Shown: positions 22,501 to 28,500 of the stretch, piece by piece | Position numbering within the stretch: position 1 is the stretch's first letter | How the letters are laid out: every line of letters starts with the position of its first letter | Virus record (IMG/VR): IMGVR_UViG_2671180890_000005 | Location: 1 to 51,026 of that record | DNA length: 51,026 bases | Reading direction: 5' to 3' (one strand) | Source of the DNA: a virus | Lineage: Duplodnaviria; Heunggongvirae; Uroviricota; Caudoviricetes | Position numbers: made by a program

Positions 22501-25500
22501 GGACACTTTGTTGCATGTGACCAGGATGAAGCCAGACAGATTTGCACAGCATCAAATGCACCTGCTGCGCGTGGCAGACGATATGCACAAGGGGCTGACG
22601 TATGACCATCTACATCACTGAGCTAATAACAGGCCTGCTGGTAATCGCAGGCCTTTTTATTTGGGGGAGAGGGAAGTGTGGCTGACTGGCAAATTCCAAT
22701 CGTCATTCTTGCCGGAGCTTCTCTGGTTGCTGGCTTTATCCTGCTGAAAAAGCATAAAGACCGTGATCAAAAAGTCGAAGTTCTCTATGGGTATCCAGCG
22801 AACAGCACAACATGGCTGACCATTTACCACTACCGAAAATCAGGCCGCTGGGTATTCGAATGGGATGATCTGTTCGCTGAAAAGCGATCAAAGTCATGGG
22901 GAGACATCAGCGAATGCATGATGTTTGAAGAAAGAAAATCCGGCGCAACTCGAGAAGAGTTTAACGAAGCGTGGGCGAGATTAAGTGAGAGAGGGTATTT
23001 GTGAGCAAGTACGAAAAATTAGATCAAAACATTCTTTCAATGCTGAGTGAAAGACCAACACCTGTTTTTGATATCTGGCTTAAATGGCGGAGCAATGGAA
23101 TGTATATCGAAACCATCGATCGCCGTATGCAATACCTGAGAAAGAAAGGGCTTGTTGCAAATGTGCGTGGGAAGGGTTGGGTGAAAATTAACCTGTCATA
23201 ACGGGGATTGATATGGACGAATCAAGAAAGCAGTTTGAGGAATACGTTGCCAAAAAATTGAGATTACCATTCGAGATGATAACCGAGGCAAGAAATGGTG
23301 ATAGGTACTTTGCATTTTCAAGCATGGATATTCGTCACTCCTTAAATGAGTGGTGGGCTTTATGGCAGGCATCGCGAGCAGCTATTGAACTGGATATCGA
23401 CTGGCCCGAATCGAATGACGACTTTTGGAAAGATGGTGAAGAAGGTGCTTATGCGATGGGTTATGAGGATGGGAGAGACAAAACGGTAATTGCAGTAATG
23501 AAAGCTATCAGAGCCGCTGGAATTGAAGAGAAGAATTTCGATGAAGCAAACAATCTTCCTCCGAACTAAGCAACAACAGCAAGCTGCAATAAATGCCATC
23601 CTCGCAACACCACTCGATAAAGACAAGCCAGTCACCATCCGCATTACTGACTACAAGCGCAACCTTGACCAGAACGCAAAATTTCACGCGATGCTGGCGG
23701 ATATCGCTCGTCAGGTTCAATGGTGCGGCAAATGGTTAAAACCAGAACAATGGAAGGTTTTGTTGATCAGCGGTCATGCAGTGGCAACAAAACAGGAAGC
23801 TGATGTTTTGCCCGGGCTTGAAGGCGAATACGTCAACATTCGCGAAAGCAGCGCGCAGATGAGTGTGAAGCGTATGGCAAGTCTTATCGAGTACACAACA
23901 GCCTGGGCTATTGGTCATGGTGTCAGATTTACCGACAGGAGGTACGAATGAGACGACAGCGACGAAGTTTCACCGACATCATCTGCGAAAACTGCAAATA
24001 CCTTCCAACGAAACGCTCCAGAAATAAACGCAAGCCAATCCCAAAAGAATCTGACGTAAAAACCTTCAATTACACGGCTCACCTGTGGGATATCCGGTGG
24101 CTAAGACATCGTGCGAGGAATACAAGGTGATTGATCCAAATCGAAGTTACGAACAAGAAAGCGTCGAGCGAGCTTTAACGTGCGCTAACTGCGGTCAGAA
24201 GCTGCATGTGCTGGAAGTTCACGTGTGTGAGCACTGCTGTGCAGAACTGATGAGCGATCCGAATAGCTCAATGTACGAGGAAGAAGACGATGAATGAGTT
24301 AATAAATGGCAATGCCATCAAAATGACAAGCATTGAAATCGCTGAGTTGGTTGGTAAGCGTCATGACAATGTGAAACGTACCATCGAAACGCTGGCTAAA
24401 AATGGTGTTATCCGGCTTCCTCAAATTGAGGTTTCCGAAAGAATCAATAACTTAGGGTTCAATGTTCAGTACGAGCATTACGTTTTCGAAGGCGAACAAG
24501 GTAAGCGAGACAGTATTGTCGTTGTTGCCCAGTTGTCGCCGGAATTCACCGCTCGCCTTGTTGACCGCTGGCGAGAGCTTGAAGAAGATGCGGTTAATAT
24601 CCCCAAAACGCTACCAGAAGCGTTGCGCCTTGCTGCTGATCTTGCTGAGCAGAAAATGCAACTGGAAAACCAGCTCGCAATTGCCGCACCTAAAGTTGAG
24701 TTTGCCGATCGCGTTGGCGAGGCCAGCGGAATTTTGATTGGAAACTTTGCAAAGGTTGTCGGTATTGGTCCAAACAAACTGTTTGCGTGGATGCGCGATC
24801 ACAAAATCCTTATTGCTTCAGGTTCCCGGCGCAATGTGCCAATGCAGGAATATATGGATCGCGGCTATTTCACAGTGAAAGAAACAGCGGTCAACACAAA
24901 TCACGGAATACAGATATCGTTCACCACAAAAATCACCGGGCGTGGTCAACAGTGGCTGACCAGAAAGCTGCTCGATAACGGAATGCTGAAAGTAACAGGG
25001 GAGGCTGCTTAATGGCTAACCTACGCAAAGAAGCGCGCGGCAGAGAATGCCAGGTACGTATTTACGGCGTATGCAATGGCAACCCTGAAACTACAGTTCT
25101 GGCACATTACCGGATGGCTGGAATTTGCGGAACGGGAATGAAGCCTGACGACCTGATCGGCGCATGGGCTTGTAGTGACTGCCACGCGGAGATCGACCGA
25201 CGCACCCATAATCTCGACAACAAAGACGCCAGACTTTACCACCTCGAAGGCGTGATCAGGACGCAGGCGGTATTGCTGAAGGAGGGGAAGATTAAGCCAT
25301 GAACGGTAAAAGATATCCAACACAAAAAGAAATCAATGAATTGTATGAATATAATAGCGAAACAGGTTTGTTTATATACAAGAGAAGAGAAAGTGTAAGA
25401 GAGTGCTGGAATTCAACATATGTCGGTAAGATTGCTGGTTCTATAGATGAAAAAGGATACGTTCGTATATCTGTAAATAAAAAAGTTTGTCGAGCTCATA

Positions 25501-28500
25501 GAATCGCATGGATATCCTTTTATGGAAGTGAACCTGATGGGGAAATTGACCACATAAATGGAGTTAAAAGCGATAACAGAATATGCAATTTGCGCGTTGT
25601 AGATGATAAACAGAACTCAAGGAACAGAAAAAAGCCTATTAATAATCGCTCTGGAGTAATGGGGGTTGCCTACTATAAGAAGAATAAAAAGTGGGGCGCA
25701 TATATAAACAGTGATAATAAAAAGATATTTCTTGGATTATACGATGACATATCTCTAGCCGTTAATGCCAGAAAATTGGCGGAATCACGATTGGGGTATC
25801 ACCATAATCATGGGAGAGGATAAATGGCAGAATACAGATTCACACTTCCGTACCCACCGTCGCTGAATACCTACTGGCGAAGACGGGGAAGCCAATACTA
25901 CATCAGCGATAAAGGCCAGAAATACCGAAAAGACGTTCAGAAAATCATCCGCCAACTCAAGTTAGACATTTTCACCAAATCACGACTCCGCATCAAAGTA
26001 ATCGCAGACGTTCCAGACTCCCGCCGCCGCGACCTCGATAACATCCTGAAAGGTTTACTCGATTCCCTTATCCACGCCGGATTTGCGGAAGACGACGAGC
26101 AATTCGATGACATTCGCGTAATTCGTGGTGTGAAAGTACCAGGCGGACGGCTTGGAATAAAAATCACCGAACTGGAGAACGTATGAACGCCACAATTCAA
26201 ACGATACCAGAGCTTCTTATCCAGACACGAGGCAATCAGACCGAAGTGGCGAGGATGCTTTCCTGCGCAAGAGGAACAGTGCTCAAGTACAACCGAGACA
26301 GCAAAGGTGAGCGTCACGTAATAGTTAACGGCGTCCTGATGGTCAAACAGGGCAAGAGGGGAAGACGATGAGCATAAGAGAACTAAACCTCACCAAAGAA
26401 CAGCACGAGTGGCTGAATGGCTGGCTTGAACTGTGGGGCGCATGGGTTTATTCAGGTCGTCTGGAAAAGCGCATGAGCAGCGTAATAGCGAAGTTCATGG
26501 AGAGCGTAGAGCCGGGAAGAGTTATGACAAGGCCAATGTGTAATGATGATGATGGAATGTTGATTTCTCAGGTCGTCGATTCCGTCATGTACATTGACAA
26601 GAAAGCCTTTGGCATCCTCCTCAGCTACTACGCTCATGGATCTTCCAAGCACGCCATTGCATCTTACTATCATCGTGTCGCAAGACCTCGCAAGATGTTA
26701 TGCCGGGGCGGCGGGCGCATTCAAAAACCATCGCTCGCAACCTGTCGCCGGGAAGTTGACGAAATCCTCAATGCCTCGTTGTTTATGATTTATCCGGTTC
26801 TGGATAGTGCGTTTAAAAACCGGAAACGTGTAGAGAAAATTAAACATGTAGCATAGAACGTGTTGACATCATTGAGCAAATGAGCAACACTATTCACATA
26901 AGCTGCCGTTAGTGACTCTTAAGTTGCAACGGTGGCTTTTTTTGTTTGCACAACAGGTAAGAGCATTCTCCCTTATGGGGCTTGGCTTAAATGCATTGAG
27001 TGCTCTTTCCGTTGTGCTGAATTAAGCGAATACCGGAAGCAGAACCGGATCACCAAATGCGTACAGGCGTCATCGCCGCCCAGCAACAGCACAACCCAAA
27101 CTGAGCCGTATCCACTGGCTATCCTGAATTCATCAGTGATAGTTACGCTGCGGCCTTCTACACATGATCTTCGTGAAAGCGGGTGACAGGAGGTTGCGCT
27201 AACAACCTCCTGCCGTTTTGCCCGTGCATATCGGTCACGAACAAATCTGATTACTAAACACAGTAGCCTGGATTTGTTCTATCAGTAATCGACCTTATTC
27301 CTAATTAAATAGAGCAAATCCCCTTATTGGGGGTAAGACATGAAGATGCCAGAAAAACATGACCTGTTAGCCGCCATTCTCGCGGCAAAGGAACAAGGCA
27401 TCGGGGCAATCCTTGCGTTTGCAATGGCGTACCTTCGCGGCAGATATAATGGCGGTGCGTTTACAAAAACAGTAATCGACGCAACGATGTGCGCCATTAT
27501 CGCCTGGTTCATTCGTGACCTTCTCGACTTCGCCGGATTAAGTAGCAATCTCGCTTATATAACGAGCGTGTTCATCGGCTACATCGGTACTGACTCGATT
27601 GGTTCGCTTATCAAACGCTTCGCTGCTAAAAAAGCCGGAGTAGAAGATGGTGGAAATCAATAATCAACGTAAGGCGTTCCTCGATATGCTGGCGTGGTCA
27701 GAGGGAACTGATAACGGACGACAGAAAACCAGAAATCATGGTTATGACGTCATTGTTGGCGGAGAGCTATTCACTGATTACTCCGATCACCCTCGCAAAC
27801 TTGTCACGCTAAACCCAAAACTCAAATCAACAGCAGCCGGACGTTACCAGCTTCTTTCCCGTTGGTGGGATGCTTACCGTAAGCAGCTTGGCCTGAAAGA
27901 CTTCTCTCCCAAAAGCCAGGACGCTGTTGCGCTGCAGCAGATTAAGGAGCGTGGCGCTTTGCCGATGATTGATCGTGGTGATATTCGTCAGGCAATTGAC
28001 CATTGCAGCAATATCTGGGCTTCACTGCCGGGCGCTGGTTATGGTCAGTTCGAGCATAAGGCTGACAGCCTGATTGCAAAATTCAAAGAGGCTGGCGGAA
28101 CGGTCAGAGAGATTGAGGTATGAGCAGAGTCACCGCGATTATCTCAGCTCTGGTTATCTGCATCATCGTTTGCCTGTCATGGGCTGTTAATCATTACCGT
28201 GCTAACGCCATGACCTATAAAGGCCAGCGAGATAAAGCCACATCCATCATCGCTGACATGCAGAAACGTCAACGTGATGTAGCAGAACTCGACGCCAGAT
28301 ACACAAAGGAGCTTGCTGATGCTAACGCGACTATCGAAAGTCTCCGTGCTGATGTTTCTGCTGGTCGTAAGCGCCTGCAAGTCTCCGCCACCTGTGCAAA
28401 GTCAACGACCGGAGCCAGCAGCATGGGCGATGGAGAAAGCCCAAGACTTACAGCAGATGCTGAACTCAATTATTACCGTCTCAGAAGTGGAATCGACAGG

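What the first reader, a model, noticed from the sequence alone, without database searches (positions are those of the whole stretch)
25299..25823. A+T-rich HNH/AP2 homing endonuclease inserted in the nin region
The ORF is A+T-rich relative to its neighbours and is wedged between a small Cys-rich nin protein and rusA with overlapping start and stop codons. It looks like a free-standing homing endonuclease that has invaded the nin region.
Basis: partly seen in the sequence, partly recalled or inferred. Interest (0 to 1): 0.45.

Follow-up and report, generated by a model that had tools for sequence, protein, structure and literature searches.

The report
Homing endonuclease gene in prophage nin region
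A small selfish nuclease gene of a known type (HNH nuclease plus AP2 DNA-binding domain) has inserted precisely between two recombination genes of a P22-like E. coli prophage; it is a clean but ordinary example of a homing endonuclease gene.

Summary
The ORF at 25299-25823 (174 aa) is real. Its GC is 35%, against 49-54% in its neighbours. It lies between ybcO (DUF1364) and rusA in the nin region of a CUS-3-like, P22-type prophage. It has an HNH_3 nuclease domain with an intact I-HmuI-type catalytic set (D84, H85, N97, N106). It also has a C-terminal AP2-fold DNA-binding domain, supported by structure and homologs but below Pfam's threshold by sequence.

It is a precise 525-bp presence/absence polymorphism. 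None of 286 related phage records carries it, and only 31-32 of about 995 E. coli genomes with the ybcO-rusA pair do. All about 50 copies have identical junctions. All are linked to a 37-nt recoded patch at the 5' end of rusA (14 fixed substitutions), which is the likely target-immunity or co-conversion tract.

The gene is 4-6 times less diverse than its immediate flanks. The flanks are as diverse as in empty-site phages, so one young element sits on many backgrounds. It is under purifying selection (pN/pS 0.12). A decaying ortholog occupies the same junction in Symbiopectobacterium.

This is a new member of a known kind. Cleavage and homing have not been tested.

The parts
25012..25302 (+). 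ybcO (DUF1364, His-Me finger nuclease family), the upstream host gene. Its TGA stop overlaps the start codon of the inserted gene.
   Evidence: Pfam PF07102, 2.7e-43. Classified as His-Me finger group 7 in PMC5714182. No substitution in it is fixed between filled and empty loci.
25299..25823 (+). Free-standing HNH_3-AP2 homing endonuclease gene (174 aa). It equals the 525-bp insertion, which can also be written as 25306-25830.
   Evidence: ORF. Precise 525-bp indel against HK97 and HK629. GC 0.352. phrog_99 'HNH endonuclease', 1e-62. All 19 non-redundant copies plus 5 metagenome copies are intact; pN/pS is 0.12 over the 19.
25491..25622 (+). HNH_3 (beta-beta-alpha-metal) nuclease domain, residues 65-108. 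Catalytic D84-H85, N97 and N106.
   Evidence: Pfam PF13392, 1.1e-16. Aligns to I-HmuI D74/H75/N87/N96. D84, H85, N97 and N109 are invariant and N106 is >=90% conserved in 72 homologs. I-HmuI (1u3e) is the top Foldseek hit.
25650..25793 (+). C-terminal AP2-type DNA-binding domain, residues about 118-165: three beta-strands followed by one helix.
   Evidence: AF2 model with pLDDT 95 has strands 123-126, 131-138 and 141-148 and helix 151-165. Foldseek matches TEM1, WRI1 and AtERF1 AP2 domains at rmsd 1.2-2.7 A. 41 of 72 homologs hit Pfam AP2. The protein's own hit is only 15.8 bits.
25812..25820 (+). Shine-Dalgarno-like GGGAGAGGA inside the last codons of the inserted gene, 3-4 nt before the rusA ATG. 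It replaces the ATGA translational coupling that rusA has with ybcO in empty-site phages.
   Evidence: Read directly from the sequence and from the empty/filled alignment. Its function is inferred.
25827..25863 (+). Recoded 5' patch of rusA, with 14 substitutions fixed between filled and empty alleles (MAEYRFT instead of MNEYQFV, plus synonymous changes). It is the presumed target-site immunity or co-conversion tract.
   Evidence: Per-site comparison of 19 filled and 79 empty loci. dxy is 0.34 here against 0.02-0.03 in the adjacent bins. The patch occurs in exactly 32 E. coli genomes; the 30 carriers listed are all among them. All 18 IMG/VR patch hits are contigs with the gene.
25824..26186 (+). 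rusA (Holliday junction resolvase), the downstream host gene, intact.
   Evidence: Pfam PF05866, 2.7e-16. From nt 40 onward it is indistinguishable from empty-site alleles.

Best explanation
This is a free-standing, site-specific homing endonuclease gene of the HNH_3 (I-HmuI-like) class with an AP2-type DNA-binding domain. It sits at the ybcO/rusA junction of lambdoid and P22-like phages.

Shown:
- It is a single-origin 525-bp insertion that takes over the ATGA-coupled start formerly used by rusA.
- It supplies a new ribosome-binding site and start for rusA, so it breaks no host gene.
- It is found, nearly unchanged, on many different phage backgrounds.

Inferred mechanism:
- The gene is transcribed with the early-right (nin) operon during lytic growth or induction.
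- The AP2 domain and the N-terminal region bind about 30-40 bp of the intact ybcO-rusA junction of a co-resident phage or prophage that lacks the gene.
- The HNH domain nicks or cuts near that junction.
- Recombinational repair from the gene-bearing copy then copies the gene, together with the adjacent 37 nt of rusA, into the cut genome.
- The gene-bearing allele is protected because the insertion splits the site and the 37-nt patch is recoded at 14 positions.
For: Architecture:
- HNH_3 scores 60.6 bits.
- D84, H85, N97 and N106 align to the I-HmuI residues D74, H75, N87 and N96, and are invariant or nearly so in 72 homologs.
- The AF2 model has pLDDT 95. Its best PDB matches are I-HmuI and then plant AP2 domains.
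- 41 of 72 homologs hit Pfam AP2.
- HNH + AP2 is an established homing-endonuclease architecture (PMC5714182; PMC10448857 citing Magnani 2004).

Mobility signature:
- 0 of 286 phage records with the same flanks carry it.
- 31-32 of about 995 E. coli genomes carry it, and the empty sites span exactly 650 bp.
- Both junctions were read in 24 non-redundant copies and are identical.
- Diversity (pi) is 0.7% in the gene and 0 in the patch, against 4.2% in ybcO and 3.0% in rusA right next to it. The flanks are as diverse as in the empty population (3.5% and 2.4%).
- There is no excess filled-versus-empty divergence in any flank bin except rusA nt 0-40.
- The nearest flank haplotype of a filled locus is often an empty one.
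- The filled loci fall into 7 upstream and 5 downstream mosaic module groups.

Foreign origin:
- GC3 is 0.30 against 0.54-0.60 in the neighbours.
- The nearest non-E. coli full-length relatives are only 45-51% identical and lie at other sites in other phages.

Maintained function: all copies are intact and pN/pS is 0.12.

Site fidelity across genera: a broken ortholog sits at the same ATGA junction after ybcO in Symbiopectobacterium.
Against: - No biochemical or genetic data exist. Cleavage, target site and biased inheritance are all inferred.
- Lambdoid phages recombine heavily, so ordinary homologous recombination over a long time could also place a single-origin insert on many backgrounds.
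- The perfect linkage of the patch to the gene is expected from adjacency alone. No homology exists that would allow a crossover between them, so the linkage does not prove selection for immunity.
- The frequency is low (about 3% of sites), which is not what an unopposed drive at equilibrium would give.
- The protein's own AP2 sequence score is below Pfam's threshold.
Confidence: 0.75

Rival explanations
1. Passive accessory gene (moron or relic). The gene descends from a homing endonuclease but no longer homes. It reached different backgrounds only through the ordinary homologous recombination that shuffles lambdoid nin regions.
For: Lambdoid nin regions are highly mosaic: the 600 bp upstream and downstream are non-homologous between many loci (pi about 0.45). 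Frequency is low, about 3%. A decayed copy exists in Symbiopectobacterium, so such genes do die in place.
Against: All E. coli-type copies are intact, keep the invariant catalytic residues, and show pN/pS 0.12. Linkage to flanking variants is lost within fewer than 10-48 nt on each side although the gene is about 5 times younger than its flanks. That pattern fits break-initiated short conversion tracts better than crossovers scattered over the flanking genes.
Confidence: 0.12
2. Competition or exclusion weapon. The main selected role of the nuclease is to damage co-infecting or superinfecting lambdoid phages that carry the intact ybcO-rusA junction. Gene conversion would be a by-product.
For: The target would be present in about 97% of related phages and prophages. 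Homing endonucleases are discussed as agents of phage-phage and phage-satellite conflict and as markers of exchange boundaries (PMC10448857).
Against: The gene lies in the repressed early-right operon with no promoter-like signal of its own, so a lysogen probably does not express it against incoming phage. Nothing here separates this reading from plain homing, and the two are not exclusive.
Confidence: 0.08
3. DNA-binding regulator. The AP2 domain acts as a transcription factor or silencer, as in CapR-AP2 'CasPR' anti-CRISPR repressors, and the HNH part is vestigial.
For: Phage AP2-domain proteins can act as sequence-specific repressors (bioRxiv 10.64898/2026.02.23.707548).
Against: CasPRs have CapR + AP2 and no HNH domain. 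Here the HNH catalytic residues are invariant across 72 homologs and in all copies. The synonymous change at D84 (GAC to GAT) shows that codon is preserved at the protein level.
Confidence: 0.03
4. Packaging-associated HNH endonuclease that assists terminase, as HK97 gp74 does.
For: HNH proteins are common in HK97-like phages, and 'HNH endonuclease' is the generic database annotation.
Against: The gene is in the early nin operon, about 5 kb from the terminase gene (30736-32148). The phage has a P22-type headful system (Terminase_3, P22 portal). The domain is HNH_3, not the PF01844 type. The gene is absent from about 97% of otherwise near-identical phages, so it cannot be needed for packaging.
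Confidence: 0.01

Closest known systems
I-HmuI (Bacillus phage SPO1 intron-encoded HNH homing endonuclease, PDB 1u3e); His-Me finger group 2 / Pfam HNH_3
   Same: Same nuclease family. The catalytic D-H...N...N set aligns. It is the best structural match. Both are small, monomeric-sized modular proteins of 174 aa.
   Different: Sequence identity is only about 22%. I-HmuI is encoded inside a group I intron and uses a C-terminal helix-turn-helix module; this gene is free-standing and has an AP2-fold module. Whether it nicks one strand, as I-HmuI does, is unknown.
HNH-AP2 homing endonucleases of phages, cyanobacteria and protists (Magnani et al. 2004; 'IPA-HNH' genes of Vibrio phage ICP1, PMC10448857)
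   Same: Same two-domain architecture: N-terminal HNH and C-terminal AP2. 41 of 72 full-length homologs score as Pfam AP2. They are free-standing genes in phage genomes.
   Different: This lineage scores as canonical HNH_3, whereas the ICP1 genes are too divergent for that profile. It lives in temperate lambdoid prophages at a defined junction. It is at most about 51% identical to any full-length relative outside the E. coli cluster.
Free-standing seg/mob homing endonucleases of T4-like phages ('intronless homing')
   Same: A free-standing nuclease gene lies between conserved genes. It shows presence/absence polymorphism among relatives, and sequence differences next to the gene mark the bearing allele.
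   Different: The nuclease families differ (GIY-YIG or HNH-Mob against HNH_3-AP2). The host is a temperate phage. Homing has been demonstrated for several T4 genes but not here.
HK629 gp62-type HNH gene between Q and the lysis genes of lambdoid phages
   Same: 43% identical over 145 aa, same family, and also a variable insert in lambdoid phages.
   Different: It occupies a different insertion site (an intergenic region downstream of Q) and is absent from this window.

Membership tests
HNH_3 / His-Me finger group 2 (I-HmuI-like) nucleases | Sequence match to Pfam PF13392 above the curated cutoff | tested here: met
   60.6 bits against a cutoff of 24.8, E 1.1e-16, residues 65-108. All 72 aligned homologs also match.
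HNH_3 / His-Me finger group 2 (I-HmuI-like) nucleases | Catalytic and metal-binding residues (I-HmuI D74, H75, N87, N96) present | tested here: met
   D84, H85, N97 and N106 align to them. D84, H85 and N97 are invariant and N106 is >=90% conserved in 72 homologs. All are preserved in every copy.
HNH_3 / His-Me finger group 2 (I-HmuI-like) nucleases | Beta-beta-alpha-metal fold | tested here: met
   The AF2 model (pLDDT 95) has strands 82-85 and 98-101 and helix 103-108. The top Foldseek PDB hit is 1u3e, E 2.3e-4. The global TM-score is only 0.42 because the domain arrangement differs.
HNH_3 / His-Me finger group 2 (I-HmuI-like) nucleases | Metal-dependent DNA nicking or cleavage | not testable with these tools
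   Needs purified protein.
AP2/ERF DNA-binding domain (Pfam PF00847) | Sequence match above Pfam's gathering score | tested here: not met
   15.8 bits against a cutoff of 33.3, E 0.018, covering only half of the profile. No hit at E<=0.001 in the full-length scan.
AP2/ERF DNA-binding domain (Pfam PF00847) | Three-stranded antiparallel sheet packed on one C-terminal helix | tested here: met
   Strands 123-126, 131-138 and 141-148 and helix 151-165. Foldseek matches 7et5, 7et4, 7wq5 and 1gcc at rmsd 1.2-2.7 A over 45-56 columns (7et4_A is looser at 5.8 A), probability 1.00, E 0.01-0.18.
AP2/ERF DNA-binding domain (Pfam PF00847) | Homologous, by full-length alignment, to proteins that are bona fide AP2 members | tested here: met
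   41 of 72 aligned homologs hit PF00847 at E<=0.001, best 1.5e-11. Precomputed PF00847 appears on many hits.
Free-standing homing endonuclease gene (functional class) | Precise presence/absence polymorphism at one site among otherwise homologous genomes | tested here: met
   Exact 525-bp indel. 0 of 286 phage records carry it. 31-32 of about 995 E. coli genomes carry it. Both junctions were read in 24 non-redundant copies and are identical.
Free-standing homing endonuclease gene (functional class) | Own ORF, not inside an intron or intein, and host genes left intact | tested here: met
   It is a separate ORF between ybcO and rusA, and both neighbours are full length.
Free-standing homing endonuclease gene (functional class) | Evidence of horizontal spread: one element on diverse backgrounds | tested here: met
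   pi is 0.7% in the gene against 3-4% in the flanks. Flank diversity equals that of empty loci. 7 upstream and 5 downstream module groups. A same-site ortholog occurs in another genus.
Free-standing homing endonuclease gene (functional class) | The enzyme cleaves the gene-less allele near the insertion site, and the gene-bearing allele is resistant | not testable with these tools
   There is only indirect support: the split site plus 14 fixed substitutions in rusA nt 3-39.
Free-standing homing endonuclease gene (functional class) | Nuclease-dependent biased inheritance in crosses | not testable with these tools
   Needs phage crosses.
Terminase-associated HNH (HK97 gp74 type) | Adjacent to the terminase/portal genes and required for packaging | tested here: not met
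   It lies in the nin operon, about 5 kb upstream of Terminase_3 (30736-32148). The phage has P22-type headful packaging. The gene is absent from about 97% of close relatives.

The most novel reading that the evidence does not exclude
The nuclease is an active driver of lambdoid mosaicism and inter-prophage conflict. On induction it would cut the conserved ybcO-rusA junction in the roughly 97% of co-resident or co-infecting lambdoid phages and prophages that lack it. That would create a recombination hot spot that sets a module boundary in the nin region, and would give its carrier a competitive edge. The gene would then be a tractable lambda-genetics model for homing in temperate phages.
Probability: 0.2. 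Interest if true: 0.55.

Novelty: new member of a known kind. Interest (0 to 1): 0.3.

Why it matters
Most experimentally studied phage homing endonucleases come from virulent phages such as T4, T5, SPO1 and ICP1. This one sits in the well-characterised lambdoid nin region. Its presumed target is defined to within about 40 bp. Classic laboratory phages (HK97, HK022, HK620, CUS-3) are natural 'empty' recipients. Homing, co-conversion, and the contribution of such nucleases to lambdoid mosaicism could therefore be tested directly with standard E. coli genetics. The finding also corrects a generic 'HNH endonuclease signature motif containing protein' annotation to a specific mobile-element assignment. 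It does not reveal a new kind of system.

Tried and rejected
- Sequence-only AP2 assignment: Pfam AP2 is below threshold, so the domain call rests on fold and homologs instead.
- Search for a donor rusA lineage carrying the recoded 5' patch without the nuclease gene: an exact 26-mer and a codon-degenerate pattern in IMG/VR, and a 44-mer in 5,426 E. coli genomes, all found only gene-bearing loci. The origin of the patch remains unknown.
- Close relatives in one-genome-per-species bacterial contigs: only one distant hit.
- Intermediate relatives in metagenomes: none between 51% and 98% identity. The only intermediate is the Symbiopectobacterium fragment.
- Whether 35-50% relatives share the ybcO/rusA site: none of 138 loci has the gene next to ybcO or rusA.
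- Own promoter or terminator: none above shuffled expectation.
- Packaging-HNH and CasPR-like repressor readings: rejected on position, dispensability and domain content.
- Perfect patch-gene linkage as proof of immunity selection: rejected as an argument, because no homology exists that would allow the two to be separated by recombination.
- A GCC-box-like AP2 target in rusA (CCCGCCG in empty alleles, CCCACCG in filled alleles): noted but not pursued. The Arg residues that read the GCC box in plant ERFs appear not to be conserved in this protein, judged by eye from the sequence and from memory of AtERF1, not by a tool.

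
Full report
**The observation.** Window 25299-25823 (+) is an intact ATG-to-TAA ORF of 174 aa.
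- Its GC is 0.352 (GC3 0.297). Upstream ybcO is 0.543, downstream rusA 0.488, and the window as a whole 0.462.
- Only 3.3% of 525-bp windows are as AT-rich, and most of those belong to one other island at 7.1-9.0 kb.
- Pfam identifies the neighbours as NinB, NinE, NinF, Roi/Ant, YbcO (DUF1364), [this ORF], RusA, NinH and Q, so this is the nin region.
- The prophage is P22-like and CUS-3-type: P22 portal and coat, Terminase_3, and an endosialidase tailspike.
- The start codon shares ATGA with the ybcO stop. At the 3' end the TAA abuts the rusA ATG with no overlap.

**The protein.**
- Residues 65-108 match Pfam HNH_3 (60.6 bits, cutoff 24.8). The best PHROG is phrog_99, 'HNH endonuclease' (1e-62).
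- The only PDB sequence relative is the homing endonuclease I-HmuI. D84, H85, N97 and N106 line up with I-HmuI D74, H75, N87 and N96.
- In an alignment of 72 homologs, D84, H85, N87, D92, N93, N97 and N109 are invariant and N106 is at least 90% conserved.
- An AlphaFold2 model built on that alignment is confident (pLDDT 95, pTM 0.82). It shows a C-terminal module of three strands plus a helix at residues 123-165.
- Foldseek against the PDB returns I-HmuI first (E 2.3e-4). Next come plant AP2 domains (TEM1, WRI1, AtERF1), most at 1.2-2.7 A rmsd.
- By sequence the AP2 call is sub-threshold for this protein (15.8 bits against 33.3). However, 41 of 72 full-length homologs hit Pfam AP2 on their own.
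- HNH_3 with an AP2 module is an established homing-endonuclease architecture (PMC5714182; PMC10448857 citing Magnani et al. 2004).

**The insertion.**
- Megablast of the region against 50,697 phage records finds 286 records with the flanks at mostly 95-99% identity. None has the ORF. Every listed one matches in two pieces with about 525 bp missing, including HK97, HK022, HK620, HK629, HK75 and CUS-3.
- Among 5,426 complete E. coli genomes, 995 have the ybcO-rusA pair. Only 31 cover the query fully. The listed empty sites span exactly 650 bp, which is 1175 minus 525.
- The gene itself is in 32 genomes, each time beside DUF1364 in the 30 listed.
- The alignment defines the event. Empty...AAGCC-ATGAACG-AATATCAGTTTGTG-CTTCC. 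Filled...AAGCC-ATGAACG-[GTAAAAG...GGATAAATGGCAG]-AATACAGATTCACA-CTTCC.
- The insert is exactly 525 bp. It takes over the ATGA-coupled start that rusA uses in empty phages.
- It gives rusA a new ATG preceded by GGGAGAGGA, which lies within the last codons of the inserted gene. No host gene is broken.

**The recoded patch.**
- I compared 19 non-redundant filled loci (window, GPEC172, 17 IMG/VR) with 79 empty loci.
- The substitutions fixed between the two classes all lie at rusA nt 3-5, 11-14, 17-20, 26 and 32, plus nt 39, where 28% of empty alleles already carry the filled base. These are window positions 25827-25863. None lies in ybcO or the rest of rusA or ninH.
- dxy is 0.34 in this 40-nt bin and equals within-class diversity everywhere else.
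- The patch 44-mer occurs in exactly 32 E. coli genomes. The 30 carriers listed are all among them.
- All 18 IMG/VR matches are contigs with the gene, including matches to a codon-degenerate pattern. One of them is truncated inside the gene.
- I read this patch as the target-site immunity or co-conversion tract that free-standing homing endonuclease genes typically carry.
- The perfect linkage is itself expected from adjacency and does not prove selection.

**Population signature.**
- Within the filled set, pi is 0.73% for the gene and 0 for the patch. It is 4.2% for ybcO and 3.0% for rusA nt 40-363.
- Those flank values match the empty population (3.5% and 2.4%).
- The flanks have 18 distinct haplotypes among 19 loci.
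- The nearest rusA/ninH haplotype of a filled locus is an empty one in 17 of 19 cases, and the nearest ybcO haplotype in 9 of 19.
- The 1.5-kb modules further out fall into 7 upstream and 5 downstream groups.
- Five further metagenome copies have identical junctions.
- So a single, comparatively young element has been transferred onto many backgrounds, with essentially no hitch-hiking beyond 10-48 nt. This fits break-initiated conversion with short tracts better than scattered crossovers, although heavy lambdoid recombination is a possible alternative.
- The gene is intact in all copies and shows 12 synonymous against 6 non-synonymous polymorphisms (pN/pS 0.12). Its function is therefore maintained.

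**Origin and relatives.**
- Outside one E. coli cluster (98% identity, 145 members), the best full-length relatives are 45-51% identical.
- They occur in diverse, mostly virulent, phages and in metagenomes. None of 138 such loci has the gene next to ybcO or rusA.
- The exception is a Symbiopectobacterium contig. A ybcO ortholog (79% aa identity) is followed, with the same ATGA overlap, by an ortholog of this gene (57-73% aa, about 73-75% nt identity). That copy is frame-broken and truncated.
- Nucleotide identity is continuous across that junction. The site association is therefore old and spans genera, and the element decays in place there, as the homing-endonuclease life cycle predicts.
- A 43%-identical paralog occupies a different lambdoid site, downstream of Q, in HK629 and in E. 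coli GPEC172. It is absent from this window.

**Mechanism (inferred).**
- There is no promoter-like or terminator-like signal at the gene. It should therefore be transcribed with the early-right operon during lytic growth, which is when other lambdoid genomes are available as targets and templates.
- By analogy with I-HmuI-type enzymes, the AP2 and N-terminal modules would bind an asymmetric site of about 30-40 bp spanning the intact junction and the rusA 5' end.
- The HNH domain would nick or cut there, and repair from the gene-bearing copy would transfer the gene plus the patch.

**Rivals.** I considered four: a passive relic, a competition weapon, an AP2 regulator like the CasPRs (which are CapR + AP2 without HNH), and a packaging HNH. 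They are weighed in the rival section. None fits as well.

**Verdict.** This is a new, uncharacterised member of a known kind (free-standing HNH_3-AP2 homing endonuclease genes), with a well-defined insertion site and good comparative evidence for mobility. Nuclease activity and homing remain to be shown.

Noticed in passing
window 7121-8974 (context 3199-10177): Two ORFs (293 and 316 aa) have the lowest GC in the window (0.29-0.30) and no Pfam hit. They lie between a DUF927/Toprim primase-helicase (3199-5886) and a tyrosine integrase (8954-10177, minus strand). This looks like a separate small integrative or satellite-type element with unknown cargo beside the P22-like prophage.
   Followed up: no
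L001 3356-3868 (HK629 gp62); L003 7783-8295 and 10355-10840 (E. coli GPEC172); window 26857-27339: A 43%-identical HNH_3 paralog lies between Q and the holin in HK629 and GPEC172 but is missing from this window. GPEC172 also has a GIY-YIG nuclease gene after the lysis genes. Lambdoid phages therefore have several variable nuclease-gene insertion sites.
   Followed up: partly
L183 143-1055 (Symbiopectobacterium contig JBPETA010000371.1): A ybcO ortholog is followed, at the same ATGA junction, by a frame-broken, truncated ortholog of the nuclease gene (about 73-75% nt identity). This is a decaying copy of the element in another genus.
   Followed up: partly
window about 25176-25191 (ybcO, 130 to 115 nt before its end): A dimorphic cluster of 7 linked substitutions within 16 nt of ybcO. 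Both forms occur in filled and empty loci, and local pi is 0.07-0.12 against about 0.025 elsewhere. It may be a small mosaic exchange patch.
   Followed up: no
window 45656-48601: The tailspike is an endosialidase (head-binding domain, beta-propeller, S74 chaperone). This implies K1-capsule specificity, as in phage CUS-3. CUS-3 itself lacks the nuclease gene.
   Followed up: no
window 25012-25302: The upstream 'small Cys-rich nin protein' is YbcO/DUF1364, itself classified as a His-Me finger (HNH-superfamily) nuclease (PDB 3g27; PMC5714182). The site therefore has three nuclease genes in a row: ybcO, the inserted HNH gene, and rusA.
   Followed up: partly
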